DNA of 58,087 nt from a virus. Numbering within the stretch: position 1 is the stretch's first letter; each line of letters opens with the position of its first letter. The notes under the pieces are model-generated. The model ran no database searches, was not told the origin of the DNA, and worked only from the letters and a program-made list of their open reading frames with translations. Below, piece after piece: positions 4,755 to 26,979 of the stretch. The stretch covers positions 1 through 58,087 of IMG/VR virus record IMGVR_UViG_3300035128_000037, one strand, 5' to 3'. The position numbers and the translations under genes are program-made.

Positions 4755-5453
4755 CTATTCCTCAATAGGGATAAGAAGCCGTTCAACCGAATCCCTATTC
4801 TTTGTAAAAATTACGTCGTCGTTAATCATCCACATTGCATCATAAAAAACGAACGTGCCGTTTTTCCATTTTGGTGCGAGGTCCGCCCAATTAACGCCTT
4901 TTTCGTAAAGCATTTCATGCATGTCTTTTGTATTTTTTTTGTGAAGCTGTTTATGCGAGTAGTAAGACTGAGAAAGCATATGGATTGAATTTCTTATCCA
5001 ATCCTGCTGTCGCCAAATAAAATAGTTGCAAACCTCATCCTTGGGAACATTGAACGCCCTGCTGTCAAATGTGGCGTACTTCGTTTGACAATAAAAAAAG
5101 CACTTTGAAAAGTAAGCAGAGGCAATACCGGCAGAAACGGAAACCATTTTTTGAAGGTTGTAATCAAACCAGGCATCGCTTGTTAGGCGTGCAAAATCAG
5201 TTACAAGAATTGATATTTCGTCTGACTGAATATAGGCACACTTCGCCCCCTGAATATTAGCGCATAACTCAACGGCGGTGTCTACCATGCTGTTTGCAAA
5301 CCAATCGTCAAACGGCTTCTCGCACCTTCTGGTCATGGTGTGAAACGCCTTGCCGTCAAGTCTGATTATTACCGGCATTCTGCGAGTAAGTTTTATCCTA
5401 TACCTGATTTCGTAGTTATCCTTCATACGATTTCCGATTGAATCTTTATTCAC
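4755..5453 (-). CDS. tRNA(His) guanylyltransferase (Thg1)-like 3'-5' nucleotidyltransferase
   Basis: IIRLDGKAFHTMT and YIQSDEISIL match the Thg1/TLP catalytic carboxylate motifs (RxDGxxFxxF, SDExS). Length 232 aa fits the family. Confidence 0.8.
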   Translation of the reverse strand: MNKDSIGNRMKDNYEIRYRIKLTRRMPVIIRLDGKAFHTMTRRCEKPFDDWFANSMVDTAVELCANIQGAKCAYIQSDEISILVTDFARLTSDAWFDYNLQKMVSVSAGIASAYFSKCFFYCQTKYATFDSRAFNVPKDEVCNYFIWRQQDWIRNSIHMLSQSYYSHKQLHKKNTKDMHEMLYEKGVNWADLAPKWKNGTFVFYDAMWMINDDVIFTKNRDSVERLLIPIEE

Positions 5454-13429: not shown

Positions 13430-13445
13430 AACACCCTCCTTGGTT

Positions 13446-13466: not shown

Positions 13467-13528
13467 GTTGGCCATGGGGTCCCACCCACCATTACCCGTC
13501 CGGCCGTGCATACCCACTCGGCTATTGT

Positions 13529-14527: not shown

Positions 14528-14534
14528 CTCTGTT

Positions 14535-16571
14535 TTACCTCCCTTCAAATCTGAGTTCTTTATCTTTATCGCTGACAATAAGCCTGATGGTCTGGGAGCC
14601 AGACTCAAGCAGCTGGGTGACAGACTCGGCATTGTCGACGAACTTGACCATGCTGATGCCGTAGAAAGACGATAGTACGTTTTGGATATCGATTCCGACG
14701 TTCAGGCGCGAGGCGTTGTTCATCGTATTGTACTGTACGCCATCATGGGTGGCCACGCATACCGGCTCAATACCTCCGTTGATCTGCTTTTCGAACAGCT
14801 TGAACCTGGTGATAAGGAACTTGTCGTTGATTGAATCCTCGATCATGCGGGTCTTGGCCTGTTCGAACTCTCCAATCAGGTACAGCTCATGTTCCAGGCG
14901 CTCAAACTCCTTGGCGAGATTATTTTCCTCGTCGCGCAGTTCCTCTACGCGCTTTTCGGAAGTGGCCGCGGCCTCTATTTTCAGCTTTTCGGCCTTGAGA
15001 TCGTCGAGTGCCTTTTCGGCCTCGTCCACTTCGGCCTGTGCCTCTGTTGTGTCAGGCGAGTCGACCTCTTTTATGTGGTCGATCTTTCCCTTTATCGTTT
15101 CGACAGCGCGCTTCAGATCGTTGAGGGTCTTGTCGGGATGCTGTTTTGGTTCGACCGGGGCAACCTCTATGATTTCCGTGAGGGCTTTGGAAAGGTCCGA
15201 TTTCTGGCTTTCGAGGGAAACGAGTTTTTCGTTGATCTTCTCCAGTTCGTCGAGGCCCTTTTTAAGAGACGCCTGGCGCAATTCAAGGATGGCTTTTTTC
15301 TCTATTCCCTCCTCGTTTATTGCCTTGAATGTGTCGGCCTGGGCCTCGTTGAACTCGGCAAGCGCTTTTTCACTGGCTGCCTTTTGATCCTCCTCCGGTA
15401 TCGGTTGGCCGCAGCGTGAACATATGCCCTCAACGTCTGGAACGAACGTCTTTTCAGCTTCCGCATTAAACCGGGATCTCAGTTCAGCCAGATTCTTTTC
15501 TAATGAGGTTATGTCCTTTTCCAGCTCGGCGTTTTTGTCCTTTACCTCGCGCTGTTTGGCCTTCTGGTCCGATACCTTTTTAGAGGCGGTTTCGACATTT
15601 TTAGTTGCCTTGTCGATTTTCTCCTGACGCTCTTTGGCGATGGCATCCACCAGAATCTGGTGATCTTTTTTGAGTTGAGTCTCCCGGTCGATTACGGAGG
15701 CCTCGGCCTCGGCCAGCTTCTTTTTCAGGTCCGATATGGCGCCCGCGCTAAGGGCCTCTTTTTTCTTCCTGAGAACCTTGTCGGCCGACTTGATCTCCTC
15801 GAGGACCGTATCGTAATCCCTGAGAGAATCATCCTTGTCGCGGGTGCGCTCGTCGATCCTGGCCGGTATCTTGTCCAGCTCCTTGTTGATTTTGGTTTGG
15901 CGCTCCTTGGCTATTTTGCGATGATCGTCAAATGATCTCTTTTTGAGGATTTCGATCATGGCGGCATAGCCCGGGTCCAGTTCACCGTCAGGAAACATCC
16001 GGCGAATGACATCCTCGTCACTCAGATCAACTCCGCACACCTCGAAAAGGAGCTTTCTCCTGGCCTCTTGCTGGGTGCATTTCTTGCCGTTGTAGGTTGT
16101 CAGCACCTCGTTGAAAAATCTCGGGTTGGTCAGCAGCTTGAACGTCAATTCGGGGCAGATATCATCGACAACCCTTTTGAATTCCTTCTCCTGCAGCGGC
16201 ACCCCGTCAACGTAATAATCGTTTTTGTTGCCGGTGAAGGTGTCATGGGCATCACCGCGATGGCGCACCCATGTTTCGGTGTGGACCTTTTTGAGGGATT
16301 TTTCAACTCCATCGATAATCAGGACGGCCTCAACCATGTGCTCCTCGTCACCAGATACCACCTCCCCGTTTTCATCGACCGTTTTTATCTGAAAGTTCGC
16401 TTGGTCGAGAGAGTCCTTGTTGAAAAGGAGCCAGTAGAAAGCGTCGGCAAGGCGGGTCTTTCCACTCTTGTTATCACCAAAAACATCGGTGTCATGGCCG
16501 TCCGGTTCAATCGTCAGGCTGCCGCCCTTGAAATTTTTCAATGATAGTCTTTTTAGCCGAATTTCCTTCAT
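14535..16571 (-). CDS. SMC/Rad50/SbcC-like ATPase with coiled coil and CxxC hook
   Basis: Walker A GDNKSGKT. Long Glu/Lys-rich coiled coil interrupted by CSRCGQP. C-terminal ATPase lobe. Confidence 0.7.
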   Translation of the reverse strand: MKEIRLKRLSLKNFKGGSLTIEPDGHDTDVFGDNKSGKTRLADAFYWLLFNKDSLDQANFQIKTVDENGEVVSGDEEHMVEAVLIIDGVEKSLKKVHTETWVRHRGDAHDTFTGNKNDYYVDGVPLQEKEFKRVVDDICPELTFKLLTNPRFFNEVLTTYNGKKCTQQEARRKLLFEVCGVDLSDEDVIRRMFPDGELDPGYAAMIEILKKRSFDDHRKIAKERQTKINKELDKIPARIDERTRDKDDSLRDYDTVLEEIKSADKVLRKKKEALSAGAISDLKKKLAEAEASVIDRETQLKKDHQILVDAIAKERQEKIDKATKNVETASKKVSDQKAKQREVKDKNAELEKDITSLEKNLAELRSRFNAEAEKTFVPDVEGICSRCGQPIPEEDQKAASEKALAEFNEAQADTFKAINEEGIEKKAILELRQASLKKGLDELEKINEKLVSLESQKSDLSKALTEIIEVAPVEPKQHPDKTLNDLKRAVETIKGKIDHIKEVDSPDTTEAQAEVDEAEKALDDLKAEKLKIEAAATSEKRVEELRDEENNLAKEFERLEHELYLIGEFEQAKTRMIEDSINDKFLITRFKLFEKQINGGIEPVCVATHDGVQYNTMNNASRLNVGIDIQNVLSSFYGISMVKFVDNAESVTQLLESGSQTIRLIVSDKDKELRFEGR

Positions 16572-16604
16572 CCTGATGCCTCCTTTTTTTGTTGTTGATC
16601 AGTC

Positions 16605-16637
16605 CCATGGCCAGGTTTATCGGGCCGGAAAACCTGG
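16605..16637 (-). promoter_or_regulatory. Perfect 11-bp stem-loop between two leftward genes
   Basis: TGGCCAGGTTT (16605-16615) pairs with AAACCTGGCCA (16627-16637) around an 11-nt loop. No U-tract follows on the transcribed strand. Confidence 0.4.
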
Positions 16638-16649
16638 CCAAAGCATTGA

Positions 16650-17060
16650 TCAAGCAGCTTCCTGAAACCGACGCATATGGATTGAGCGGAAATACATCAC
16701 CTGATCGTATGTGGTTCGCAGCGTTTTGGCGAATGTCCGGAAATCCCTGAACAGGATCTCGTAATAGTCTTCCATTCCTTCCGGTGGCGCGAACTCAAGT
16801 TCTTTCTGCTCATGGTACGCGGGCCCGTCGAAAAGGGTGTATTTGTCCTTCTCGTTCACCTCGTCCAGCTTGAACTTTATGCCCACTTCAACGTCAATCG
16901 CGCCGGATCGATTGGACGGCTTGAACTTTACCGGAAGGCTGACAGGAAGATCACCCTCGCACTTCGTGTAAGCCTCGTCCATGGCGCGCCTGTTTTGCCT
17001 GAGTTTTCCGGATACCCTTTCGATCACCTGTTCTATAATCGCGTTGTTGATGCTTGCCAT
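16650..17060 (-). CDS. Hypothetical protein
   Basis: 136-aa ORF with SD. Confidence 0.6.
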   Translation of the reverse strand: MASINNAIIEQVIERVSGKLRQNRRAMDEAYTKCEGDLPVSLPVKFKPSNRSGAIDVEVGIKFKLDEVNEKDKYTLFDGPAYHEQKELEFAPPEGMEDYYEILFRDFRTFAKTLRTTYDQVMYFRSIHMRRFQEAA

Positions 17061-17097
17061 GATATATGGCCTCCTTTTCGGTTAATTTGTTTATAGG

Positions 17098-17481
17098 TCA
17101 ATAATCAATCGGGGTGATTAGCGGGGCCCACCCGTTGTAGGCCCCGCTCTCCGTAAAACCTTCGCTTTTGGCTAATCGCCCATCAGCATCACCCCCCATC
17201 GCCGCCAGCTTTGAATAGTCGCGCTCGGCCGGCAGCATCATGTTGGTTGGTACGAGCGCGAAAAATATTCCGGAGATAAAAAGAATTGCTATCAAAATAA
17301 GGTTCCACTTGTTGAAAGGCACAAATGCGTGGTTGGCGATCCAGGTGGCTTCCTTCTGCCTTTCGGATTTAACCCGCCTGATCTCTTCGTTGTCGTCCCT
17401 CAAAGACGATCTGAAAAACCAGGTCATGAGTGCAACAGCTATCCCGATACAAGCGATTGTGAAAAACGTTATCTCAATCAT
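17098..17481 (-). CDS. Membrane protein (2 TM)
   Basis: ATG 17481; TM segments IEITFFTIACIGIAVALMTWFF and LILIAILFISGIFFALV. Confidence 0.55.
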   Translation of the reverse strand: MIEITFFTIACIGIAVALMTWFFRSSLRDDNEEIRRVKSERQKEATWIANHAFVPFNKWNLILIAILFISGIFFALVPTNMMLPAERDYSKLAAMGGDADGRLAKSEGFTESGAYNGWAPLITPIDY

Positions 17482-17574
17482 GTCCTTTCTCCTTTTTCTG
17501 GTAACCCAAAAAACCCGCCCACTTCCACCCACTCGCCTACCTTGTGGGCGGGTTCGATTGACTACCAGCGCACC

Positions 17575-18009
17575 CTATTCTTCCTGCTCGCGCAGCTTCT
17601 TGGTTGGCTTAAGGTATTCATCCAAGACGCTCAGGATATGCTCCACCTGCTTCTGTTTCAATATCCCCGGGAAGGGGTGGGAATATATCCTCATCTGCCT
17701 GATACCGATGACAACGTTGGAGATTTCGTCGTCACGATCGTATATTTTGTGCCAGATGGTCTGCGCCTTTGGTAGGGCCAGCTTCAAATCACCCTTGTTG
17801 CGGACGACATCTGATTTTCTGATTGTCATGGGCTCCAGGGTGTTCACGATCATTTCGTTTCCCCTCACCATGTATTCGTACATCCCGCTCTTGGCCTGGG
17901 TGAAGCCTTCAGTGGCTATGGCCGGCGTCGATGCCACGACCAACATCAGCATGGCGGTCAAAAAGATGATTCCGGTCATAAATTTGATTCTGAAAAAAGT
18001 GTAGTTCAT
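17575..18009 (-). CDS. Secreted protein
   Basis: Signal peptide ...IIFLTAMLMLVVASTPAIA|TEG. Confidence 0.55.
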   Translation of the reverse strand: MNYTFFRIKFMTGIIFLTAMLMLVVASTPAIATEGFTQAKSGMYEYMVRGNEMIVNTLEPMTIRKSDVVRNKGDLKLALPKAQTIWHKIYDRDDEISNVVIGIRQMRIYSHPFPGILKQKQVEHILSVLDEYLKPTKKLREQEE

Positions 18010-18671
18010 TGGTGGTCTCCTTTGGTTAATAGTTGTTTTTCGTACAAAAATTCCCTCATGTCAGTGTAGTAGAACTTAGGTATAAACCGCATTGCGGCTT
18101 CCCTGAAAAGGCCTGCAGGAACATAAAGATATTCCTCCCCGATCGTTGTCAGTGGAAACTCGGAATCGGAAGGCACCACGTTAAAATAGTCGTTCAGTTT
18201 TAGATACGTCTTTTCTTCGCCGTCAATAATCATTGCTTGAACATGAAAACCAGTTACAGTGCTACCGCTTACCGCTACAAAGGCGTTTTCGATCTTCAGA
18301 TCTCGTTCGAGTATGGTAATGATGTTCAGTGCCTTATCTACGCAGTTCCCATGTGCTATGATTTCTTCATCATCTGAGTCTTCAAAGTAATAAATTACAT
18401 CACCTGTAGATGGAGGTGTGGTGTCGGTGTCGTCTGCCACGTTTGTGGCGCCTACGGCCAGCGGCTTCCAATTGCTATCTATCTGTGCAATTCTGAGCTC
18501 TCCGTAAAAATGAAGCATGAAGACGAATGAAATTACCAGCAAAACAACAGTTACAATGAAGGCTATACACCAGAAGGTTTGAAGCCTTTCTTCTTCCCGG
18601 ATTATCTCTTTTTGCTCGGCTATTCTGAGTCGAAACCTTCTGAATGCATTGGCGGTTTTTAAGTCAGCCAT
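18006..18671 (-). CDS. Single-pass membrane protein
   Basis: TM segment FWCIAFIVTVVLLVISFVFML after a charged N-terminus. Confidence 0.55.
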   Translation of the reverse strand: MADLKTANAFRRFRLRIAEQKEIIREEERLQTFWCIAFIVTVVLLVISFVFMLHFYGELRIAQIDSNWKPLAVGATNVADDTDTTPPSTGDVIYYFEDSDDEEIIAHGNCVDKALNIITILERDLKIENAFVAVSGSTVTGFHVQAMIIDGEEKTYLKLNDYFNVVPSDSEFPLTTIGEEYLYVPAGLFREAAMRFIPKFYYTDMREFLYEKQLLTKGDHQ

Positions 18672-18697
18672 TTTTTTACTCCCTGGTTTTAATTATC

Positions 18698-18925
18698 CTA
18701 ACTGGATTTCCTGGTAACGGTTACTCTGTGTATCCCGGCCAGGCGGTGCTTTGCATAAAAATAGTCATCCGGCTCTTTGCTCAAAGTAGGCCACGCAGGA
18801 ACATAGTCTGTACCGCGAAGTTCCAAAAACACCTTTTCGATTTCTTCCACTTCTACGGTGAGGCTGTACATCTGGTGGATGGAGGTCTCTATGGCATCAA
18901 TTACCTTTTTGGTGTCTGGGATCAA
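18698..18925 (-). CDS. Hypothetical protein
   Basis: 75-aa ORF. Confidence 0.5.
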   Translation of the reverse strand: MIPDTKKVIDAIETSIHQMYSLTVEVEEIEKVFLELRGTDYVPAWPTLSKEPDDYFYAKHRLAGIHRVTVTRKSS

Positions 18926-18985
18926 CTTACCCTCCTTACAAAGTTTGGGGTTAAAAGGGGCTATCTTCTTCTATGTATGGCTGTA

Positions 18986-19399
18986 TTAGTTTTTTGTTTC
19001 TCTTGTAACAATAGCACCATAGCTTGCAAACTCACTCATCATATCCGCCGAATCTTTATCGGATAAGGGTGTTTCTATTGTGCTTGGTACTGAGTCTACA
19101 ACATCTTTAGCTTCTTTGAGACCCAATTTTGTAATGTCCCGGATCAACTTTATGCATTCAATTTTATTGTTCCCGCAGTCGTGTAGTGTTAAATAATAGA
19201 GAACCTCGTTACATTTGTTGTGGGCTCTAACAAATGCGGCCGGGTTTGATTTCGCCATTTCTATTTCAACCGCGCTTAGGGATGATGTGTAACTTCCTAT
19301 TATTCCGATCACTTGCTTATAATAATTAGCGCTCATGTTTCCTCCTTGTTTGCCGCCCCCTGTGGTAGCGGGGCGGGGGTGTGTAATATTGGTCACCAT
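18986..19399 (-). CDS. Ribosomal protein bL12 (L7/L12) C-terminal-domain-like protein
   Basis: [31 protein letters not shown]...[16 protein letters not shown] parallels E. coli L7/L12 [27 protein letters not shown]...AEALKKALEEAGAEV. The likely start is Met22 (about 19336), after AAGGAGG. Confidence 0.7.
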   Translation of the reverse strand: [137 protein letters not shown]

Positions 19400-19404
19400 G
19401 GGCT

Positions 19405-20022
19405 CTATATGTCGTCGAAAACGACCGGCAGCAATCCGCGCAGTTCATCCAGCAGAGGAAGCATGAGCGCCCTCATCTGAGGATGAGCTGCTTTTGCTGT
19501 TCTTAGCTTGAAAATGTGCCGCCACTCACGAATATTGGCTTGTACAACGATCTCGGTTTTGAGGCTGTTGGGGAGCACTTCGCGTGCCTGTTCAGGACGC
19601 CATCCGAGTTGGCGCAGTCTTTTGTACTTTTCCTCGGCCTGCATCAAAGAGTCGGTGAATGCTGCCCACGCCCTTGATTCATCGGTGTTGCCGGAATATT
19701 GGTTTAAATCCCAAACTGGACGAATAAATTCCATTTCTGACTGATAATCGACATATCTGGTACTCTCCTGGGCGAACGAACAAAGCCGGTGCCGCACCAG
19801 TTCGTGTGTCACTCCCCGGTTGGTGACGAATTTCACGATGATTGATCCAAATTCGATCATGGCGTGGTGTCCGCGCTTTATGAGCATCTCAACAAACGCT
19901 CCCGCCGAGTTTACGTCAATACGATCCTCGGACTTGTAGCAGGTCCGCCCAGCTCTCTCCAAGGTCTGTAAAATACCGTCTGGTACGCTTAAAATCTCAT
20001 GTGATTGATCGATAATTTTCAT
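19405..20022 (-). CDS. thyX: FAD-dependent thymidylate synthase ThyX
   Basis: ThyX signature RHRLCSFAQESTRY (RHRxxSxxxxSxR), with HHAMIEF and IREWRHIF. Confidence 0.9.
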   Translation of the reverse strand: MKIIDQSHEILSVPDGILQTLERAGRTCYKSEDRIDVNSAGAFVEMLIKRGHHAMIEFGSIIVKFVTNRGVTHELVRHRLCSFAQESTRYVDYQSEMEFIRPVWDLNQYSGNTDESRAWAAFTDSLMQAEEKYKRLRQLGWRPEQAREVLPNSLKTEIVVQANIREWRHIFKLRTAKAAHPQMRALMLPLLDELRGLLPVVFDDI

Positions 20023-20048
20023 CTTTATTGCTCCTTTTTGTTTAGGCC

Positions 20049-20069
20049 CGAAAAACCTATCCCTACGTT
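20049..20069 (-). repeat. 21-nt perfect repeat CGAAAAACCTATCCCTACGTT, copy 2
   Basis: Identical to 13446..13466. Confidence 0.9.
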
Positions 20070-20153
20070 ATCGTTTAAATGCCGGAGTCAGGTTTATCCG
20101 GCTACCGGGATTCCCGCCAAGACTGTATACGCCTTGCGTCCCGTATTTTGTTG

Positions 20154-20353
20154 AGCTGGCTGGCGGGGATTCGAACCCCGCATGGTTTTGGGCGCTTCGC
20201 CAATCCGTGGTTACGGTGGGAGTCAAACCCACCGGCTCGTTAATGTGTTTTTTAGAGTTTTTCACCTCTCCTTGTTACCCTTTCTGGTCGCCCCACACTG
20301 GAAACTAAAACCTTAGCCCTGTTATCCGTCTACCCTTTCCGGCACAGCCAGCT
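20154..20353 (-). ncRNA. tRNA-like structured RNA candidate (T-arm plus acceptor-like helix; not a canonical tRNA)
   Basis: Minus strand: GCGGGG-TTCGAAT-CCCCGC (plus-strand 20163-20181) is followed directly by CAGCCAGCT. That string is complementary to AGCTGGCTG about 190 nt upstream (plus-strand 20345-20353). A D-arm-like TG-CCG-GAAAGGGTAGA-CGG-A follows the 5' strand. Confidence 0.45.
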
Positions 20354-20382
20354 ATCTACCGGCATCGGTTGGGATGCCGTTC

Positions 20383-20619
20383 TCAAACGCTATTATAGTT
20401 ATAGTACTCCACAATCCCTGTTATAATCGGAGATAAACAGTGCTCTTTGAAAAAAGTTGCGCTATAGCCGCTTTTATAAACAGAGGCCTTTTTGTAAGAA
20501 ACACAATCCATTCGGCACTCATCGCGCAATAGTGGACAAAAACCAAGTGGTTCGTTAATATGTTCGGAAAGCTTTTTTTCAGCATATGCTAATTGTTTTC
20601 CGTATGAATCTGTTTTCAT
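20383..20619 (-). CDS. Hypothetical Cys-rich protein
   Basis: 78-aa ORF with AAGGAAGGAG SD. Confidence 0.55.
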   Translation of the reverse strand: MKTDSYGKQLAYAEKKLSEHINEPLGFCPLLRDECRMDCVSYKKASVYKSGYSATFFKEHCLSPIITGIVEYYNYNSV

Positions 20620-20696
20620 GCCGCTCCTTCCTTAGTTGGTTATTAACTCCCGGCTGCCCACACGCATATATGGGCAGAAAGCAGGTAATGACCGGT

Positions 20697-20984
20697 TTAA
20701 ACGACGCCAAGCGATACGCATTTGTCTCTTATTTTAGCGAAGTCTCCAACCCCATCACGAATTTGTTCTCTCGTTGTTGTCCCTTCGAATACCATCCTCC
20801 AATCGTCGGGCATTTGGCTTTTGGCATGGTCTATCATACCAATAAACACTTCGGCCTCCTCCGCGCTTTCACAGTTTTTGATAGCCTCTATCGACTCCAC
20901 TATTGTTCTTAATAGCGGACGAACGATAGCAATCTCCGCCATTGCTCTCATAGTTTCATTATCCATATGGCCGTCGTCAAACAT
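20697..20984 (-). CDS. Hypothetical protein
   Basis: 95-aa ORF with GAGGAGG SD. Confidence 0.55.
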   Translation of the reverse strand: MFDDGHMDNETMRAMAEIAIVRPLLRTIVESIEAIKNCESAEEAEVFIGMIDHAKSQMPDDWRMVFEGTTTREQIRDGVGDFAKIRDKCVSLGVV

Positions 20985-20990
20985 TTCATA

Positions 20991-21021
20991 CCTCCTCGAT
21001 TGGTTTGAACTCGATGATGGT
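20991..21021 (-). repeat. 31-nt 5'-leader repeat, copy 1
   Basis: CCTCCTCGATTGGTTTGAACTCGATGATGGT is 27/31 identical to 21240..21270. Confidence 0.8.
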
Positions 21022-21043
21022 CATATCGGGGCAACAGAGTAGG

Positions 21044-21232
21044 TTATTCGACGGGTTCACAAACCCTTCCGCACCCGCACTGCGGGCATAGAAACACGGG
21101 TTTCTGCCCGAACTCATGAAAATATTCGTCGTCACTGACAACCCAATCTTCTTGAGTGTATCCGCAATAGCCACACTCGACTTGGAATTCCATATCTCCT
21201 CTTTGGAGATCGTTAAAATCTGTTGTTTTCAT
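21044..21232 (-). CDS. Zinc-ribbon protein; first gene of the leftward operon
   Basis: CGYCG...CPQCGCG. Confidence 0.6.
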   Translation of the reverse strand: MKTTDFNDLQRGDMEFQVECGYCGYTQEDWVVSDDEYFHEFGQKPVFLCPQCGCGRVCEPVE

Positions 21233-21239
21233 CTCTAAT

Positions 21240-21270
21240 CCTCCTTGGTTGGTTTAAACTCGATTATGGT
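21240..21270 (-). repeat. 31-nt 5'-leader repeat, copy 2
   Basis: CCTCCTTGGTTGGTTTAAACTCGATTATGGT. Confidence 0.8.
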
Positions 21271-21273
21271 TAG

Positions 21274-21420
21274 AATATTTCAAACATTTAATTTGATGTC
21301 AAGCGGCAAATTATAAAAAATAACGATTTGACATGTAAATTTTATCAAACCATTGTATTCACTGTATATAAATTTTTAAAAAATAATTATTGACATTGTG
21401 AATCAATTGGAATTAGTATT
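21274..21420. promoter_or_regulatory. AT-rich divergent promoter region between the leftward and rightward operons
   Basis: Leftward: -35 TTTACA (complement of 21334-21339), 18-nt spacer, -10 TATAAT (complement of 21310-21315). A second leftward TTGACA is the complement of 21297-21302. Rightward: TTGACA 21390-21395, 18-nt spacer, TAGTAT 21414-21419, only about 7 nt before ATG 21427. Confidence 0.55.
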
Positions 21421-21426
21421 GAAACC

Positions 21427-21621
21427 ATGAAAAATCCTACCTCTGAAATAATAAGAAAAAAGAGAAAGGCTGCTCGCCTCACTCAGCGCGAGCTGGCCGG
21501 CATTATTGGCAGGGCTCACGAAACCATTTGCCGATACGAGAAGGGTGTGATCGATCCACCTTCGTCGGTCCTATATCGTATTATCGAGATTTGCGACCGG
21601 TTGTCTGGGAACGGGTCATAG
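21427..21621 (+). CDS. XRE-family HTH regulator (repressor-like; near-leaderless)
   Basis: KKRKAARLTQRELAGIIGRAHETICRYEKG is an HTH_3 pattern. No SD. The -10 element lies directly upstream. Confidence 0.75.
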   Translation: MKNPTSEIIRKKRKAARLTQRELAGIIGRAHETICRYEKGVIDPPSSVLYRIIEICDRLSGNGS

Positions 21622-21644
21622 AACAACATAATCAAGGAGGGGGT

Positions 21645-21953
21645 ATGAGACAAGACTTACTTAAACGAATTGAGCCATTTTCAAAAGGTTGCTTTTCTGG
21701 CAATGTTGTTGATTGGCCTCAACTAAAGCCGCTTCTTAAAGACATTCATAATTATCTTTCAACCGCGATTGAATACGAAATCGAAAACGGCGGGGAAATA
21801 TCCGCTGGTCTACTACCATACTCTGAAACCGTTTGCGTTGTTGTGGAAAGCGGCGACCCAGGAGGAGATGATGGTGAATTCGCAGTTTTTATGCAGGATT
21901 GTTTAATGGAGTGGTTTGACGGATCTGCGGTTGAAATTATTACAAAATATTAA
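21645..21953 (+). CDS. Hypothetical protein
   Basis: AAGGAGGGGG SD then ATG 21645. Confidence 0.6.
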   Translation: MRQDLLKRIEPFSKGCFSGNVVDWPQLKPLLKDIHNYLSTAIEYEIENGGEISAGLLPYSETVCVVVESGDPGGDDGEFAVFMQDCLMEWFDGSAVEIITKY

Positions 21954-21992
21954 CCCACCGCCCAACCACACAACCAAGGAGGGGGCGCAGTA

Positions 21993-22136
21993 ATGGTAAC
22001 TATTCTTTTTGGGGTACTCGGCATACTAAATGGGATTTTAATGCTACTTTACCAGTTTGATGACCGCTACGAAAGGGCGACCTTTCACGCCGTTTTGTTA
22101 ATCGGTTTTATTTTGATGGCAAAATCGTTCGACTAA
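21993..22136 (+). CDS. Small membrane protein (47 aa)
   Basis: AAGGAGGGGG SD. Hand translation MVTILFGVLGILNGILMLLYQF...LLIGFILMAKSFD. Confidence 0.5.
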   Translation: MVTILFGVLGILNGILMLLYQFDDRYERATFHAVLLIGFILMAKSFD

Positions 22137-22361
22137 TACACCAATTAACCCCTTGACACCACCCAACCCTATAGGGTACGTAGGATTATGCCACGCTACA
22201 ATATTTCAAATATAGAAATCGGTTCATACATCGTTGACCCTGGGGGTTCTCCCTATTCCCTCCTTGGCGTGGCAGCAGGGCGCGGTGTGTGGGCCGATTT
22301 GTGTTTTTGAGGTGCGCCATGACAAAAGATAATTTCACACAGTTTCCAAGGAGTGTTGTGT

Positions 22362-23273
22362 ATGAGCTCAGATAGGCGTCCTTGGTTCTCATGGTATCCT
22401 AGAGATTATATTGCCGATGAAAAGGTAAAGGCTTTATCTGATGACGCAGAATTAGTGTATAGACGGGCGCTCGACGTTCTTTGGCAATCAAATGATCTAC
22501 AATTGCCCAACAATTGCTTGAAACTTGCTAACCAGTTGGCGCGTGGTTGGTCAGCAGAAAGATTCGAAAGTGCGTGGAATGAGATACAGACACCAGGCTT
22601 TGAGATACTAAAAACAACCGAAGATGGACTATGGGTTTACTCCAAGAGGTTGTGTAAAGAGGCAAAAAAGATTGAAAATATTAGCAAAAAAAGATCTGAA
22701 AGTGGGAAAAAAAGGGCTAAGCAAATGTTCAGCAATTGCTCAGCAAATGACAAACAAACGCTGAGCCATACAGATACAGATACAGATACAGATAATAATA
22801 CCCCCCCCATATCCCCCCTAAATGGGGGCGGTAGGGTGTCCTATAGTGAATCATTCGAACAGTGGTGGTCTCATTACCCAAAGAAGACCAACAAGAAGGC
22901 AGCCTTTAAAAAATGGAAAACGATCGGTAAAAACAAAGAGGCTACCGTATCGCAACTTGTGGACGCCATTAAGAATCAAGTTGAAAACGATCATTTCATT
23001 GGCAGAGATGGCAATGAATATATTCCAGCGCCTGACGTTTGGTTGAATAAAGGCAAGTGGATGGACGAGGTGGTCAAAAAGAGTTCTGGATCCGAAACTA
23101 ACACACCACACCCAACTACTTACGCCCAATGCCAGGACCTTGAGCGCAGGCAGATGGCCAGGGCCACGCTCGAGTACATGGAGGGATGTAACGATGGCGA
23201 AATTGACGGAGAAAATGGTTCAGGCAGAACTGAGTGCATTGAACATTGCCCTGACGGCCAGGAAGACACCTGA
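22362..23273 (+). CDS. Replication-associated protein with YdaU/DUF1376-like N-terminus
   Basis: RPWFSWYPRDYIADEKVKALSDDAELVYRRALDVLW resembles the DUF1376 signature; AAGGAG SD. Confidence 0.55.
   Translation: MSSDRRPWFSWYPRDYIADEKVKALSDDAELVYRRALDVLWQSNDLQLPNNCLKLANQLARGWSAERFESAWNEIQTPGFEILKTTEDGLWVYSKRLCKEAKKIENISKKRSESGKKRAKQMFSNCSANDKQTLSHTDTDTDTDNNTPPISPLNGGGRVSYSESFEQWWSHYPKKTNKKAAFKKWKTIGKNKEATVSQLVDAIKNQVENDHFIGRDGNEYIPAPDVWLNKGKWMDEVVKKSSGSETNTPHPTTYAQCQDLERRQMARATLEYMEGCNDGEIDGENGSGRTECIEHCPDGQEDT
22770..22793 (+). repeat. Tandem hexanucleotide repeat (ACAGAT)x4 inside the replication gene linker
   Basis: Direct reading. It encodes TDTDTDTD and is followed by an A/T run and C8/C6/G5 tracts. 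Confidence 0.9.
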
Positions 23274-23556
23274 CGAAATTCGGATACAGGCCAGGGTGTT
23301 TTTTGGAGATTGCTCTCATATGAGCCATGATCACTTCAAAGAAAGTATAAAGCGCTGCAGACAGGCATCTCCTTATTTTCCGACACCTCACGATGTAATT
23401 TCAAAGTATCGCCTCATAAAAAGCGAGTCGGCCGCAAAGGCAGCAGCCCAGCTTCCTATGCCCGACAATATTCCGGACGAACAATTGGAGATCAACCGAA
23501 AGGGCATCGAGTCTGTCAAGAAAAGGCTTGCCCGAAAATTTGATATGAACCGATGA
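23194..23556 (+). CDS. Possible helicase-loader-like (G39P-like) replication protein
   Basis: GGAGGG SD then ATG 23194. Layout MAKLTEKMVQAEL...HMSHDHFKESIKRC...YFPTPHDVI resembles G39P-type loaders (from memory). Overlaps the upstream gene by 80 nt. Confidence 0.4.
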   Translation: MAKLTEKMVQAELSALNIALTARKTPDEIRIQARVFFGDCSHMSHDHFKESIKRCRQASPYFPTPHDVISKYRLIKSESAAKAAAQLPMPDNIPDEQLEINRKGIESVKKRLARKFDMNR

Positions 23557-23563
23557 AAATGCA

Positions 23564-24676
23564 GTGATAGGTTTCAGTGGCTTGAATTATTACAACGACA
23601 ACGACAAATTTTCAGTAAAATGGCTAAGGTGTCTGATCGAGTCAAATCTAATACCGCACGGTGAAGTCGATGACAGAAGCATCACAGAAATCAAACCAGC
23701 AGAACTTAAAGGATTTAATCAATGTCACTTTTTCGCAGGCATTGGAGGATGGTCTTACGCACTTGCATTGGCTGATTGGCCCAGGAACAGACAAGTGTGG
23801 ACCGGAAGCTGCCCATGCCAGCCATTCAGTGTCGCGGGGAAAGGCGAAGGAATTAGAGACGATAGACACCTTTGGCCCGCTTTTCGGTGGCTTATCGCGC
23901 AATGCAGACCTGCAACAGTATTTGGAGAGCAGGTTGCGAGCCTCGATGGACGTGAATGGCTCGCTGGAGTACGTCTTGACCTGGAAGCGATGGGATATCG
24001 ATTCGGGGCCGCCGATCTGTGCGCTGCGGGCGTCGGCGCGCCGCACATACGGCAACGACTTTGGTGGGTGGCCGACTCCAACCAGCAAGGAAAAAGCTGG
24101 TGGGGAATACAAAGACCCGGAAAAAGCTTTGAAGCGTGCTCTGGGTCCGCATGCAAACGATCTTCGGGATTTTGCGCAAATGGCGGGGTGGCCCACACCA
24201 ACAGATTCAATGATGACAGAACAGGACATGGCACAGGCGATGACGGCCGGAAACAGTCTGAAACGAAAGGGCTATCAGGAGTCGAAGATTTTTTCGGGAT
24301 GGCAGACACCATCCGCAACGGACGGAAAGAGAGGAGGAATAGGGATCACGGATGGAATGACAGGGCAGAGTCTTACCCAAATGGCGAAAATGACCGGTTG
24401 GCCGACCCCAACAGCAACGGATTCATCAAAGAGAGGGAGCGTATCACCGAGACCTGGGATGATGGGTTTGTCGGAAACGGCCCCGCTTTCTGGGAAAATA
24501 GCAGAATCGTCATATGTAGGGACGGAAAAAATAGACGGATACCGGCTGAACCCCGCTTTTTCCCTTTGGCTGATGGGTTACCCACCGGAACTGTGGGCCT
24601 ACTGCGTGGTGCCGGAAATGCGATCAATCCATACGTTGGCGCAAAGTTTATAGAGGCGTTTTTATCAATTCAGTGA
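23564..24676 (+). CDS. DNA (cytosine-5)-methyltransferase (frame 2 reading)
   Basis: Motif I FFAGIGGWS, IV GSCPCQPFSVAGKG, VI VFGEQV, VIII GAPHIRQRLWWVA and X GAGNAINPYVGAKFI are all in this frame. Confidence 0.8.
   Translation: MIGFSGLNYYNDNDKFSVKWLRCLIESNLIPHGEVDDRSITEIKPAELKGFNQCHFFAGIGGWSYALALADWPRNRQVWTGSCPCQPFSVAGKGEGIRDDRHLWPAFRWLIAQCRPATVFGEQVASLDGREWLAGVRLDLEAMGYRFGAADLCAAGVGAPHIRQRLWWVADSNQQGKSWWGIQRPGKSFEACSGSACKRSSGFCANGGVAHTNRFNDDRTGHGTGDDGRKQSETKGLSGVEDFFGMADTIRNGRKERRNRDHGWNDRAESYPNGENDRLADPNSNGFIKERERITETWDDGFVGNGPAFWENSRIVICRDGKNRRIPAEPRFFPLADGLPTGTVGLLRGAGNAINPYVGAKFIEAFLSIQ
23661..24653 (+). CDS. Alternate-frame (frame 3) ORF inside the methyltransferase gene, with GW(P/Q)TP(T/S) repeats
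   Basis: 330 codons open. Four GWPTPT-type repeats differ mainly at frame-3 third codon positions. Ends with LNPAFSLWLMGYPPELW. Confidence 0.4.
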   Translation: MKSMTEASQKSNQQNLKDLINVTFSQALEDGLTHLHWLIGPGTDKCGPEAAHASHSVSRGKAKELETIDTFGPLFGGLSRNADLQQYLESRLRASMDVNGSLEYVLTWKRWDIDSGPPICALRASARRTYGNDFGGWPTPTSKEKAGGEYKDPEKALKRALGPHANDLRDFAQMAGWPTPTDSMMTEQDMAQAMTAGNSLKRKGYQESKIFSGWQTPSATDGKRGGIGITDGMTGQSLTQMAKMTGWPTPTATDSSKRGSVSPRPGMMGLSETAPLSGKIAESSYVGTEKIDGYRLNPAFSLWLMGYPPELWAYCVVPEMRSIHTLAQSL

Positions 24677-24709
24677 CCAAGGGTGCGAATTAAAAAAAGG
24701 GATTTATCC

Positions 24710-25063
24710 ATGAGATATCCAATAGCGAGAGGAAGGACCAGGCAGCCGAAAAACGGCCCCAACAAAACAGAGCAGGAATACGCCGATAGGCTTGAGCAGA
24801 TGCGAATGTGTGGTTTGGTTTTGTGGTACGGATACGAAAAGATAAAGCTGAAGCTGGCCAACAGAACATTCTTTACAGTAGACTTTTTTGTGATGAACAA
24901 GGATAGAGAGCTTGAGGCCCATGAGGTCAAGGGTGGATTCTGGGAAGACGACGCCAGGGTAAAAATAAAAGTGGCTGCTGAGCAGTTCCCGATCTTTAGG
25001 TTTATAGCTGCCCAAAAATTACCTAAGAGCAAAGGCGGTGGTTGGAAAATAGAGGAGTTCTGA
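24710..25063 (+). CDS. DUF1064-like PD-(D/E)xK nuclease (resolvase-like)
   Basis: NKTEQEYADRLE...FFTVDFFV...EAHEVKG layout is typical of DUF1064. Confidence 0.5.
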   Translation: MRYPIARGRTRQPKNGPNKTEQEYADRLEQMRMCGLVLWYGYEKIKLKLANRTFFTVDFFVMNKDRELEAHEVKGGFWEDDARVKIKVAAEQFPIFRFIAAQKLPKSKGGGWKIEEF

Positions 25064-25110
25064 TAGGACAAAACGGAGGTTAATTAATGAAACACCACAG
25101 GAGGAAAAAG

Positions 25111-25986: not shown

Positions 25987-26019
25987 TCTATGAACTGACA
26001 AAATATTGGAGGATTAACC

Positions 26020-26322
26020 ATGGAATTAATTATTATAATGTCATTATTTTTTGTGTTTATAGGGTTTTGCTTTTTTATGATCGCAAGGGCTCATTGGGTG
26101 TATGATCGTCAGATTGAGTGGAATCAAAAAGTTTACGATATGAGGAGTGCACTAATCGGCCGAAGAGATTACAAAACTCTTGTATTGTATGGATATGATG
26201 AACTTTTCGGTTCCATTATGTCATTTAATAAGATGATGTTGTATTTCTGGAGGTTCGATCTTAAAAAAATGGTTGTCGATTTGGATAAGTTTAACTTTGT
26301 TATCAATGGAGGTAGACCATGA
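26020..26322 (+). CDS. Membrane protein
   Basis: N-terminal TM segment LIIIMSLFFVFIGFCFFMI. Confidence 0.55.
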   Translation: MELIIIMSLFFVFIGFCFFMIARAHWVYDRQIEWNQKVYDMRSALIGRRDYKTLVLYGYDELFGSIMSFNKMMLYFWRFDLKKMVVDLDKFNFVINGGRP

Positions 26323-26699: not shown

Positions 26700-26712
26700 G
26701 GGGGGGTAGACC

Positions 26713-26961: not shown

Positions 26962-26979
26962 AAAATGGAGGATTGGATA

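What the first reader, a model, noticed from the sequence alone, without database searches (positions are those of the whole stretch)
20023..20382. tRNA-like structured RNA candidate in the largest non-coding gap of the early operon
The 360-nt gap between thyX and the upstream gene contains, on the minus strand, a textbook T-arm GCGGGG-TTCGAAT-CCCCGC (plus-strand 20163-20181). It is followed directly by CAGCCAGCT. That 9-mer is perfectly complementary to a sequence ~190 nt upstream (plus-strand 20345-20353). The result is an acceptor-like helix stacked on the T-arm. Just 3' of the upstream strand is a D-arm-like segment TG-CCG-GAAAGGGTAGA-CGG-A. Further hairpins follow, CGGTGGG-TTTGACT-CCCACCG and TTGGCG...CGCCCAA. 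I could not draw a canonical 73-90-nt cloverleaf. About 110 nt separate the D-like and anticodon-like arms. The acceptor plus T stack is 13 bp rather than 12. There is no G3:U70 pair and no obvious tag ORF. It is therefore neither a normal tRNA nor an obvious tmRNA. Candidates are a Y-RNA-like (YrlA-type) tRNA mimic, an interrupted tRNA, or a decoy or substrate for tRNA-directed enzymes. The same operon encodes a Thg1-like tRNA 5'-end repair enzyme (4755..5453).
Basis: seen in the sequence. Interest (0 to 1): 0.65.

Follow-up and report, generated by a model that had tools for sequence, protein, structure and literature searches.

The report
Anticodon-less tRNA-Leu mimic in phage
The gap upstream of thyX encodes a real, conserved RNA that keeps the core of a leucine tRNA but has no anticodon arm, and it belongs to a widespread phage RNA family that I could not find described anywhere and whose function is unknown.

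Summary
Window 20156-20351 (minus strand, 196 nt) has a 7-bp acceptor-like helix, U8-G9, a 3-bp D stem with the loop GAAAGGGUAGA, a 144-nt insert, a 6-bp T stem with loop UUCGAAU, and the 3' acceptor strand.

A covariance model built from 14 related phage sequences, without the window, matches it end to end (73.5 bits, E=1.5e-19). Across 96 distinct family members, 99% of helix positions pair and 14 of 16 pairs show compensatory changes.

The D arm is that of phage tRNA-Leu. The anticodon arm is missing. It is replaced by a linker and a helix (S2) that ends exactly two bases (AU) before the T stem and carries a variable domain of 8-214 nt. The acceptor/T stack is 13 bp (7+6), against 12 bp in genuine phage tRNA-Leu genes with the same D arm.

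Members occur in Listeria, Enterococcus, Bacillus (SPbeta-like), Lactobacillaceae and Geobacillus phages and in many IMG/VR contigs, often beside tRNA genes. ARAGORN and Rfam 15 do not recognise it. It is not a tRNA, tmRNA, YrlA or intron-split tRNA.

The most likely reading is a processed, non-decoding tRNA-Leu mimic or scaffold. Its target is not known.

The parts
20156..20351 (-). Whole conserved RNA core (196 nt), from the first base of the acceptor 5' strand to the last base of the acceptor 3' strand
   Evidence: Full-length match to model R2, which was built without the window: 73.5 bits, E=1.5e-19.
20345..20351 (-). Acceptor-like helix, 5' strand CUGGCUG. In this phage it is extendable by AG at 20352-20353.
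   Evidence: Pairs with 20156-20162. All 7 family pairs show compensatory changes.
20343..20344 (-). U8-G9 linker
   Evidence: Invariant in the seed alignments.
20326..20342 (-). D arm: CCG / GAAAGGGUAGA / CGG (3-bp stem, 11-nt loop with G13, A14, A15, G18 G19, A21/A22). It is the tRNA-Leu type.
   Evidence: It is the same D arm as canonical phage tRNA-Leu genes. The 23-mer is shared exactly with L082.
20313..20325 (-). Linker AUAACAGGGCUAA between the D stem and helix S2. It takes the place of the anticodon-arm 5' side.
   Evidence: Relatives have linkers of about 6-21 nt (S2 5' strand found at insert positions 7-19) that usually end in A (often ..UAA) before a G-initiated S2.
20307..20312 (-). 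Helix S2, 5' strand GGUUUU
   Evidence: Pairs with AAAACC at 20184-20189. 27/500 shuffles do as well for the window alone. At family level, 39/86 inserts have an anchored helix of at least 6 bp, against 4.2±2.0 in shuffles.
20190..20306 (-). Variable domain enclosed by S2 (117 nt). It contains the hairpins CGGUGGG-UUUGACU-CCCACCG (20214-20234) and GGCG-AAG-CGCC (20191-20201), and an SD-like AAGGAGAGGUG (20263-20273).
   Evidence: Hairpins are predicted by folding. They are not conserved in relatives. This phage has no close relatives, so they cannot be tested by covariation.
20184..20189 (-). Helix S2, 3' strand AAAACC
   Evidence: Ends exactly 2 nt before the T stem, as in the family.
20182..20183 (-). 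A-U dinucleotide before the T stem. The U is equivalent to U48.
   Evidence: The last three insert bases are CAU or UAU in 84 of 92 IMG/VR members.
20163..20181 (-). T arm: 6-bp stem GCGGGG/CCCCGC with the canonical T loop UUCGAAU
   Evidence: Five of the six T-stem pairs covary, and the stem is 99.8% paired.
20156..20162 (-). Acceptor-like helix, 3' strand CAGCCAG. The next base (20155, C) is the discriminator position. No CCA is encoded.
20360..20379 (-). 7-bp hairpin CGGCAUC-CCAACC-GAUGCCG directly after the stop codon of the upstream ORF. It lies outside the family model, and whether it belongs to the element is uncertain.
   Evidence: Predicted. It has no U tract, and no terminator was called on this strand.

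Best explanation
This is the gene for a non-decoding, tRNA-Leu-derived RNA. It belongs to a phage-borne family that I could not find described.

Shown:
- It keeps the class-II tRNA-Leu core: a 7-bp acceptor helix, U8-G9, the tRNA-Leu D arm, U48, and the T arm.
- It has no anticodon arm. That arm is replaced by a linker plus one helix (S2) that carries a variable domain.
- Its acceptor/T stack is 13 bp (7+6).
- It lies inside the leftward early operon, with no promoter-like or terminator-like site of its own.

Inferred:
- D-loop G18-G19 dock on T-loop U55-C56 to form a tRNA elbow.
- RNase P and the 3' tRNA-processing nucleases cut the RNA out of the operon transcript at the ends of the acceptor helix. 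This gives a stable RNA of about 200 nt and also separates the upstream cistron from the thyX message.
- The mature RNA then acts in trans as a tRNA-Leu mimic or natural 'tRNA scaffold'. The conserved core would engage a factor that reads the tRNA-Leu core or elbow. LeuRS is the most specific candidate. A tRNA-directed toxin or defence nuclease is the alternative.
- The missing anticodon arm and the extra base pair would keep it out of decoding.
For: Homology: R2, built without the window, gives 73.5 bits and E=1.5e-19 over the full length.

Score controls:
- chance D-arm matches score 30 bits or less;
- genuine tRNA-Leu genes score 28-37 bits;
- family members score 42-118 bits.

Covariation: across 96 distinct sequences, 99.0% of cells are paired and 14/16 pairs change on both sides. 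The covariation score is 0.774, against 0.176 in shuffles (0/500) and 0.13 or less in slid registers. The independent small set gives the same picture.

The tRNA-Leu D arm is shared with canonical phage tRNA-Leu genes (7/5 stack, A73, often with CCA).

13-bp stack: 92 of the anticodon-less elements are 7/6, whereas all 39 canonical tRNA-Leu genes are 7/5.

S2 helix: 39/86 inserts have it, against 4.2±2.0 in shuffles, and it is register-specific. The window has it.

Minimal members have inserts of 8-31 nt, so no anticodon arm can exist.

Genomic behaviour is that of tRNA genes. 26/84 elements lie within 500 nt of tRNA genes, all on the same strand.

Processing is suggested by the flanks. No conserved promoter or terminator flanks the elements, and conservation stops at the ends of the helix. 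The window has no flanking promoter or terminator on the minus strand.

LeuRS: it needs A73 plus U8-A14, G18-U55 and G19-C56. Deleting the anticodon arm costs only 2.5-fold in affinity (PMC2377443).
Against: - There are no expression or processing data for this or any member.
- The discriminator is not conserved (A in about 46-49% of members, and C in the window). An A73C change lowers leucylation about 48-fold in Aquifex.
- No CCA is encoded.
- Many Firmicutes members have G instead of U at T-loop position 55. This should weaken the G18-U55 contact that LeuRS needs.
- No conserved protein partner was found nearby.
- A 13-bp stack, and in the window a 9-bp acceptor helix, may hinder RNase P.
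- The variable domain of the window cannot be tested by covariation, because the phage has no close relatives.
Confidence: 0.5

Rival explanations
1. Cis-acting 'punctuation' element. The tRNA-like fold exists only to recruit RNase P and RNase Z/E so that the polycistronic transcript is cut between the upstream ORF and thyX. In Firmicutes phages the cut would lie at the head of the late operon. The released RNA has no job of its own.
For: - The element is embedded in an operon without its own promoter or terminator.
- In temperate Firmicutes phages it lies between the late activator gene (RinA/ArpU type) and HNH/terS.
- tRNA-like processing handles are known elsewhere from my own knowledge (MALAT1 mascRNA, MHV68 tRNA-miRNA transcripts).
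Against: - RNase P needs only the acceptor/T stack and the elbow. It does not explain a near-invariant tRNA-Leu D arm across phages of different phyla, the strict 13-bp stack, or the conserved S2 helix and structured inserts.
- Some phages carry two copies.
- Members also sit inside tRNA arrays, where ordinary tRNAs already supply cleavage sites.
Confidence: 0.2
2. Anti-defence decoy. The RNA is an uncleavable tRNA look-alike. It binds and blocks a tRNA-targeting defence nuclease or toxin that recognises the tRNA core. It lacks the anticodon arm, which is where such enzymes cut. (This is a specific sub-case of the trans-acting mimic idea.)
For: - Defence nucleases that cut tRNA anticodon arms or variable loops are documented, and phage tRNAs counter them (P2-OLD, PtuAB, AriB: PMC12445682; abstract of PMC13096335).
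- In EH-TP1 and L125 the element sits next to a tRNA-Lys(UUU) gene.
- The insert is hypervariable, as expected in an arms race.
Against: - No known defence system is reported to target tRNA-Leu through its core.
- The known counter-measures are functional replacement tRNAs, not decoys.
- No association with any defence system was tested here.
Confidence: 0.12
3. An intron-interrupted tRNA-Leu gene that is spliced to give a decoding tRNA.
For: - At lowered thresholds ARAGORN forces a 'tRNA-Arg(gcg) with a 123-nt intron'.
- Annotators called related Erwinia and Pectobacterium elements tRNA-Cys(aca) and tRNA-Val(gac).
- The L082 phage has two real tRNAs with inserts of about 60 nt in the anticodon loop.
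Against: - Rfam finds no group I or group II intron, even at E≤10.
- Inserts range down to 8, 23 and 31 nt, leaving no room for an anticodon arm.
- No anticodon stem or 7-nt loop is conserved.
- The isotypes assigned by software are mutually inconsistent.
- The 13-bp stack differs from every canonical tRNA-Leu with the same D arm.
Confidence: 0.04
4. A small tmRNA-like rescue RNA, or a YrlA-type Y RNA.
For: - The ends are open in the acceptor helix and a large domain replaces the anticodon arm, as in tmRNA.
- Some Firmicutes members have pseudoknot-like inserts.
- Phages are known to carry YrlA (PMC4201824, listed).
Against: - ARAGORN finds no tmRNA, even at a lowered threshold.
- No tmRNA or YrlA hit is found in the region at E≤10.
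- Position 3:70 is G:C, not G:U.
- No conserved reading frame exists, and inserts can be as short as 8 nt.
- YrlA is circularly permuted relative to this RNA (consensus shown).
- No TROVE/Ro domain was found in the ORFs tested.
Confidence: 0.03
5. A decaying tRNA-Leu pseudogene, or a protein-coding region (ORF 20068-20265, 65 aa).
For: - The element derives from tRNA-Leu.
- An SD-like AAGGAG lies just upstream of the GUG of the 65-aa ORF.
Against: - Ninety-six distinct sequences keep every helix through compensatory changes. That is incompatible with decay.
- The ORF has no Pfam hit and no homologue among 5.8 billion proteins, and it was not even called as a gene on the source contigs.
- The SD-to-GUG spacing is only 2 nt.
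- The ORF runs through the T arm and the acceptor strand, whose conservation is explained by RNA pairing.
Confidence: 0.02

Closest known systems
Canonical bacterial/phage tRNA-Leu (class II tRNA)
   Same: - The D arm is essentially identical (UG-GCG/CCG-GAA(N)(N)GGUAGA-CGC/CGG).
- It shares U8, A14, A15, G18 G19, U48, the T loop and a 7-bp acceptor helix.
- It occupies the same genomic niches as phage tRNA genes.
   Different: - It has no anticodon arm and no anticodon.
- It has a single helix (S2) with a variable domain of 8-214 nt instead of the anticodon and variable arms.
- The T stem is 6 bp, which gives a 13-bp stack rather than 12 bp.
- The discriminator is not fixed as A, and no CCA is encoded.
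- ARAGORN and Rfam tRNA do not detect it.
tmRNA tRNA-like domain
   Same: The 5' and 3' ends pair in an acceptor helix next to a T arm. A large structured domain replaces the anticodon arm. A helix closes that domain next to the T arm, like P2 of tmRNA.
   Different: - It has a true D stem-loop of tRNA-Leu type.
- It has no G3:U70 pair and no tag reading frame.
- The stack is 13 bp.
- The tmRNA models do not match it.
YrlA (bacterial/phage Y RNA-like tRNA mimic, Rfam RF02553)
   Same: It is a non-decoding tRNA mimic with D and T arms, and such RNAs are sometimes carried by phages.
   Different: YrlA is permuted: its ends lie in the Ro-binding stem and its acceptor-like stem is capped by a loop. 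Here the ends lie in the acceptor helix. There is no RF02553 match and no Ro gene was found.
Phage T4 stable RNAs species 1 and 2 (rnaC, rnaD)
   Same: They are stable RNAs of unknown function, encoded in a phage tRNA cluster, with a tRNA-like T arm and paired ends.
   Different: They are not homologous. R2 matches only the 17-nt T hairpin of rnaC (12.3 bits), and they have no tRNA-Leu D arm.
Engineered minimal tRNA-Leu and tRNA scaffolds; viral tRNA-like processing handles (MHV68 vtRNAs, mascRNA)
   Same: - The anticodon arm is dispensable for bacterial LeuRS.
- Foreign RNA modules can be carried in a tRNA body. A Spinach aptamer fused to a tRNA is the example listed (PMC5397188, abstract only); that the fusion is a tRNA-Leu with the aptamer in its variable arm is from my own knowledge.
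- tRNA-like folds are used as RNase P/Z handles (my own knowledge).
   Different: Those are laboratory constructs or eukaryotic-virus elements. This is a natural bacteriophage family with its own conserved 13-bp geometry.

Membership tests
Canonical tRNA (Rfam RF00005 / ARAGORN) | Cloverleaf with a 5-bp anticodon stem and a 7-nt anticodon loop; detected by tRNA models | tested here: not met
   ARAGORN finds 0 genes in the window. Rfam finds none at gathering score, and no tRNA hit at E≤10 in 19900-20500. Only a forced 'tRNA-Arg + 123-nt intron' appears at an 80% threshold.
Canonical tRNA (Rfam RF00005 / ARAGORN) | 12-bp acceptor/T coaxial stack (7+5) | tested here: not met
   The window has 7+6 = 13 bp. 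Canonical phage tRNA-Leu genes with the same D arm are all 7+5.
Canonical tRNA (Rfam RF00005 / ARAGORN) | Core tertiary nucleotides (U8, A14, G18 G19, U54, U55, C56, A58) | tested here: met
   All are present in the window sequence and conserved in the family.
tmRNA | Detected by tmRNA models; G3:U70 alanine identity pair; internal tag reading frame | tested here: not met
   ARAGORN -m is negative, also at a lowered threshold. There is no tmRNA hit in the region. Pair 3:70 is G:C. No conserved frame exists, and family inserts go down to 8 nt.
YrlA / Y RNA-like | RF02553 match; permuted topology with the ends in a Ro-binding stem; Ro (TROVE) protein partner | tested here: not met
   No RF02553 hit in the region at E≤10. 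The ends lie in the acceptor helix. No TROVE domain was found in the 29 window ORFs scanned, which is not every ORF.
Group I intron-interrupted tRNA | Intron core recognisable; exons reconstitute an anticodon arm | tested here: not met
   No intron family is hit. The window's 144-nt insert contains no conserved anticodon arm. Relatives have inserts of 8-31 nt.
New family: phage 7/6 anticodon-less tRNA-Leu-like RNA (defined here) | Full-length match to a covariance model built from other members | tested here: met
   73.5 bits, E=1.5e-19, model positions 1-130 of 130. This lies within the family range of 42-118 bits and above genuine tRNA-Leu at 28-37 bits.
New family: phage 7/6 anticodon-less tRNA-Leu-like RNA (defined here) | 7-bp acceptor + UG + tRNA-Leu D arm + 6-bp T stem | tested here: met
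   Covariation of all three helices is shown.
New family: phage 7/6 anticodon-less tRNA-Leu-like RNA (defined here) | Helix S2 closing the insert and ending 2 nt (AU) before the T stem | tested here: met
   GGUUUU (20307-20312) pairs with AAAACC (20184-20189), followed by AU.
LeuRS substrate (functional tRNA-Leu identity) | A73 discriminator plus the U8-A14, G18-U55 and G19-C56 core (PMC2377443) | tested here: inconclusive
   The core is present, but the window's discriminator is C and the stack is 13 bp. Aminoacylation cannot be tested with these tools.
T4 rnaC/rnaD stable RNAs | Sequence and structure homology | tested here: not met
   R2 matches only the T hairpin of rnaC (12.3 bits).

The most novel reading that the evidence does not exclude
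Phages of many bacterial phyla carry a dedicated class of 'anticodon-less tRNA-Leu' RNAs. These would be recognised, and perhaps leucylated, by host LeuRS, or captured by a tRNA-directed immune nuclease or toxin. The extra 13th base pair and the missing anticodon arm would bar them from the ribosome. That would make them a new kind of RNA-based host-manipulation or anti-defence device built on a tRNA chassis, with a fast-evolving cargo domain carried on helix S2.
Probability: 0.2. Interest if true: 0.85.

Novelty: new variant of a known kind. Interest (0 to 1): 0.7.

Why it matters
tRNA mimics such as tmRNA, YrlA and the viral tRNA-like structures have each revealed new biology.

This family appears to be abundant. 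It is also present in well-studied isolates, including Listeria phages LP-101 and B054, SPbeta-like Bacillus phages, and Enterococcus, Lacticaseibacillus and Geobacillus phages.

Yet tRNA finders and Rfam 15 do not see it, it is unannotated in the GenBank family-member records I inspected, and related elements in Erwinia and Pectobacterium phages are annotated as tRNAs of arbitrary isotypes.

It offers three things:
- a natural test of what a tRNA core can do without an anticodon;
- a natural 'tRNA scaffold';
- a possible new layer in the tRNA-centred arms race between phages and bacterial defences.

For genome annotation, a covariance model such as R2 would remove false tRNA calls and fill 'empty' intergenic gaps.

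Tried and rejected
Searches that found nothing useful:
- ARAGORN at default settings, Rfam at gathering score and Rfam at E≤10 gave nothing beyond a weak mascRNA T-arm hit.
- BLAST of the region and of a 20-kb stretch (window 10000-30000) against GenBank phages found no relatives.
- 80 IMG/VR loci with related ThyX genes were checked. By BLAST and nhmmer the RNA is not linked to thyX. The CM later found three unrelated copies there by chance of sampling: L011, L015 and L018.
- Exact T-arm/acceptor patterns in IMG/VR gave 0 matches or an unrelated hit (L081).
- The single metagenome scan, using the 17-mer D-arm string, returned only chance matches. None had a T arm, and all scored 30 bits or less with R2.
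- The single genome-contig scan was equally unproductive.
- The flanking 78-aa ORF and the L12-like protein have no homologues, so they could not lead to relatives. The only other contig (Logan SRR11696381) is identical to the window.

Technical dead end:
- The first CM (R1, with a placeholder hairpin) could not span the 144-nt insert and found the two halves separately. I replaced it with R2.

Hypotheses considered and rejected:
- attP or a tRNA 3' fragment: the acceptor and T stems covary, and the 5' D arm is the most conserved part.
- tmRNA, YrlA, intron-split tRNA, pseudogene, and the 65-aa ORF.

Other negative or weakened results:
- A link to T4 rnaC/rnaD was tested and not found.
- Erwinia Fifi287 and Pectobacterium CBB first looked like '8/5' 13-bp variants. 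On reflection they can equally be read as 7/5 with A73. They score like genuine tRNA-Leu (33-36 bits). I treat them as a related but separate class with a 22-nt 'anticodon' loop.
- Nine literature searches found no description of the family.
Full report
**1. The observation**

I read the minus strand of 19800-20600. The gap 20023-20382 lies between thyX (19405-20022; Pfam Thy1, E=8e-44) and a 78-aa ORF (20383-20619).

- the T arm GCGGGG-UUCGAAU-CCCCGC (20163-20181);
- the strand CAGCCAGCU (20154-20162), which pairs with AGCUGGCUG (20345-20353);
- the segment UG-CCG-GAAAGGGUAGA-CGG (20326-20344);
- two further hairpins (coordinates computed).

Standard detectors see nothing. ARAGORN finds no tRNA or tmRNA in the whole window. 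Rfam 15 finds no family at gathering score. At E≤10 the region gives only a weak mascRNA-type hit on the T arm. At lowered thresholds ARAGORN forces a 'tRNA-Arg with a 123-nt intron'. I regard that as an artefact.

**2. Finding relatives**

The phage has no close relatives in GenBank. The flanking small proteins have no homologues. The only other contig that carries the locus is identical to the window. ThyX-linked loci from IMG/VR did not carry the RNA at the same place.

The break came from the D-arm string. An exact 18-mer found L082, an 80-kb IMG/VR contig. There the same 23-mer, UGCCGGAAAGGGUAGACGGAUAA, sits in a tRNA gene cluster, and the acceptor and T stems have completely different but still complementary sequences.

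Degenerate patterns and short-query BLAST then found members in these sources:
- L125;
- Enterococcus phages EH-TP1 and EG-TP1;
- the deep-sea/Geobacillus phage D6E;
- Listeria phages LP-101, B054 and vB_LmoS_188;
- Lacticaseibacillus and Lactiplantibacillus phages;
- Bacillus phage KLEB27-1;
- SPbeta-like phages BUCT082, SPbetaL1 and phi3T.

The metagenome and genome scans with the D-arm string gave only chance matches.

**3. Test of membership and chance**

I built covariance model R2 from 14 members, leaving the window out. The specified structure contained only the acceptor helix, the D stem and the 6-bp T stem.

R2 matches window 20156-20351(-) over its full length at 73.5 bits, E=1.5e-19. 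The next best hit in the 58 kb scores 6.5 bits.

The controls behave as they should:
- loci that merely contain the D-arm 17-mer score 30 bits or less;
- genuine tRNA-Leu genes score 28-37 bits;
- family members score 42-118 bits.

Among their 187 D-arm sites:
- 92 are elements of the same build, 84 of them distinct;
- 39 are ordinary phage tRNA-Leu genes (7+5 stack, A73, normal anticodon and variable arms, often with CCA) that carry the very same D arm.

An R2-guided alignment of 104 hits (96 distinct, including the window) has 99.0% of helix cells paired. Fourteen of 16 pairs change on both sides, in 470 compensatory cells. The covariation score is 0.774, against 0.176 in shuffles (0/500) and 0.13 or less in slid registers. 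A smaller hand-made set gave the same result.

Two caveats apply. Members were partly chosen by a pairing filter, and the large alignment is fitted to the model. However, the variety of pair types (four to six per acceptor position) cannot arise from selection alone.

**4. Anatomy**

The family plan, from 5' to 3', is:
- a 7-bp acceptor helix;
- U8-G9;
- a 3-bp D stem with an 11-nt loop, GAA(N)(N)GGUAGA;
- a linker of about 6-21 nt (S2 5' strand found at insert positions 7-19), usually ending in A;
- a helix S2 that usually starts with G;
- a variable interior;
- the S2 3' strand;
- exactly two bases, nearly always AU;
- a 6-bp T stem with a 7-nt T loop;
- the acceptor 3' strand.

S2 is statistically solid. 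Thirty-nine of 86 distinct inserts have a helix of at least 6 bp anchored at that exact register, against 4.2±2.0 in shuffled inserts. The signal falls off when the anchor is moved.

The window has S2: GGUUUU (20307-20312) pairs with AAAACC (20184-20189), followed by AU.

Inserts range from 8 to 214 nt. The smallest members are just a linker, or a linker plus one hairpin. So the anticodon arm is truly absent, and what varies is the loop of S2.

In the Listeria, Enterococcus and D6E members the linker appears to pair into that loop, forming a pseudoknot, with some compensatory changes. I could not verify an equivalent pairing in the window. The 117-nt interior of the window folds into several hairpins. 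These cannot be tested for lack of close relatives.

The acceptor/T stack is 7+6 = 13 bp in the anticodon-less elements and 7+5 = 12 bp in all canonical tRNA-Leu genes with the same D arm.

T-loop position 2 is G in most members whose D loop reads ..AGG.., and U in those that read ..GGG.. (64 and 22 cases, against 6 mixed). That is an association which may reflect a tertiary contact.

The Erwinia (Fifi287) and Pectobacterium (CBB) elements are annotated as tRNA-Cys(aca) and tRNA-Val(gac). They share the D arm, but they keep an anticodon-like stem with a 22-nt loop and a variable arm. They can be read as 7/5 with A73, and they score like tRNA-Leu. I treat them as a related, separate class.

**5. 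Context**

In the window the RNA lies about 1 kb downstream of the leftward promoters in the divergent control region (promoter-like sites between about 21270 and 21380). It has no promoter-like or terminator-like site of its own on the minus strand.

Across 81 IMG/VR members, no flanking position is conserved, no promoter sits at a fixed distance, and only 10 have a terminator-like hairpin downstream. Conservation stops at the ends of the acceptor helix. That is what one expects of an RNA released by processing, as tRNAs are.

None of 84 elements is called a tRNA by ARAGORN. Twenty-six have tRNA genes within 500 nt, all on the same strand. Two phages carry two copies.

In temperate Firmicutes phages the element sits between the late activator gene (RinA/ArpU/sigma-like) and HNH-terS-terL. 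In Listeria LP-101 it lies between the Rfam motifs rli62/rliG and mcrA. No protein family accompanies it generally: the best cluster is present in 12 of 101 loci.

The window phage has a P22-like portal, an intein-containing large terminase, RecT and a Thg1-like protein, but no canonical tRNA gene.

Thg1-like genes occur in 164 phage records. These are mostly large Bacillus and other phages, not the small temperate carriers of this RNA. So the Thg1 link is not a property of the family.

**6. What it is and how it probably works**

*Shown.* This is a conserved, structured RNA derived from phage tRNA-Leu. It retains the class-II core, lacks an anticodon arm, has a 13-bp stack, and behaves in genomes like a tRNA gene.

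*Inferred.*
- It folds into an L-shape with a normal elbow.
- It is cut out of the operon transcript by RNase P and 3' nucleases.
- It cannot decode.

*Speculative.* Its conserved tRNA-Leu core is kept because something reads it.
- LeuRS is the most specific candidate. Bacterial LeuRS uses A73 plus U8-A14, G18-U55 and G19-C56, and it tolerates deletion of the anticodon arm with only a 2.5-fold loss of affinity (PMC2377443).
- Against this, the discriminator is A in only about half of the members and is C in the window. An A73C change costs about 48-fold in the Aquifex system. Many members also have G55.
- An alternative is a tRNA-directed toxin or defence nuclease. Several such enzymes cut anticodon arms or variable loops and are countered by phage tRNAs (PMC12445682; abstract of PMC13096335). 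An arm-less look-alike could act as an uncleavable decoy.
- A purely cis role as an RNase P 'punctuation mark' is possible. It does not explain the invariant D arm, the 13-bp rule or the conserved S2.

**7. Comparison with known families**

- It is not a canonical tRNA (no anticodon arm, 13 bp, not detected).
- It is not a tmRNA (no G3:U70, no tag frame, no model match).
- It is not YrlA (permuted topology, no RF02553 match, no Ro gene found).
- It is not an intron-split tRNA (no intron core, and inserts as short as 8 nt).
- It is not related to T4 rnaC/rnaD.
- The 65-aa ORF across its 3' half has no homologue and was not called as a gene on the source contigs.
- Nine full-text literature searches found no description. 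Much of the subscription literature is not in that library, so prior description cannot be excluded.

**8. Verdict**

The element is a member of an apparently undescribed, widespread phage family of anticodon-less tRNA-Leu mimics.
- Identity and structure: high confidence.
- Processing: moderate confidence.
- Molecular target and biological role: unknown.

Noticed in passing
window 18986-19399 (-): The gene directly downstream of thyX encodes a 137-aa protein with a ribosomal L7/L12 C-terminal domain (Pfam E=1.9e-16). Among 5.8 billion proteins it has no homologue other than itself. A phage-encoded L12-like factor next to a tRNA mimic is a curious pairing.
   Followed up: partly
window 4755-5453 (-): A Thg1-like (tRNA-His guanylyltransferase family) protein (Pfam E=1.5e-25) is encoded in a phage with no canonical tRNA gene. 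Homologues occur in 164 phage records, mostly large phages.
   Followed up: partly
window 28280-30805 (+): The large terminase subunit (Terminase_3) appears to be interrupted by an intein; an Intein_splicing domain covers residues 486-764.
   Followed up: no
window 47050-53370 (+): A 2106-aa ORF carries an LPD38 'large polyvalent protein' domain (E=2.4e-38). It is probably an ejected or polyvalent virion protein.
   Followed up: no
window 11912-16571 (-): A recombination-type module lies in the same operon: a metallo-beta-lactamase-fold protein (11912-12472), RecT (13529-14632) and an SMC/RecF-like ATPase (14535-16571). The MBL fold is also that of RNase Z/J-type nucleases (from my own knowledge). 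Its substrate here is unknown.
   Followed up: no
L082:1055-1182(-) and L082:1357-1479(-): The IMG/VR phage that carries the closest relative of the window RNA also has two bona fide tRNAs (Rfam tRNA 49.5 and 45.8 bits). Each has an insertion of about 60 nt in the anticodon loop. That is too short for a group I intron, and how or whether it is removed is unclear.
   Followed up: partly
L166:1493-1607 (Erwinia phage Fifi287) and L178:699-808 (Pectobacterium phage CBB): Elements annotated as tRNA-Cys(aca) and tRNA-Val(gac) are homologous to each other. They have a tRNA-Leu D arm, a 22-nt 'anticodon' loop and a covarying variable arm with the conserved loop AGCCGYGAG. The isotype calls look like software artefacts.
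   Followed up: partly
L169:982-1437 (Listeria phage LP-101): The family member (1195-1324) is flanked by three known Rfam motifs: rliG and rli62 upstream and the mcrA RNA motif downstream. All lie between the RinA-like gene and the HNH/terminase genes, which makes an unusually RNA-dense leader of the late operon.
   Followed up: no
L253:2252-2380 and 3005-3146; L237:7279-7405 and 8180-8321: Two IMG/VR phages each carry two copies of the family element, about 600-800 nt apart.
   Followed up: no
window 20360-20379 (-): A 7-bp hairpin (CGGCAUC-CCAACC-GAUGCCG) lies immediately after the stop codon of the upstream ORF and 6 nt before the extended acceptor helix. It has no U tract and may be a processing or stability element.
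   Followed up: no
window 20263-20273 (-): An SD-like AAGGAGAG followed by GUG lies inside the variable domain and opens the 65-aa ORF 20068-20265. The ORF has no homologue, and the spacing is too short for a typical start. A purine-rich, SD-like stretch also occurs near the 5' side of the insert in several relatives.
   Followed up: partly
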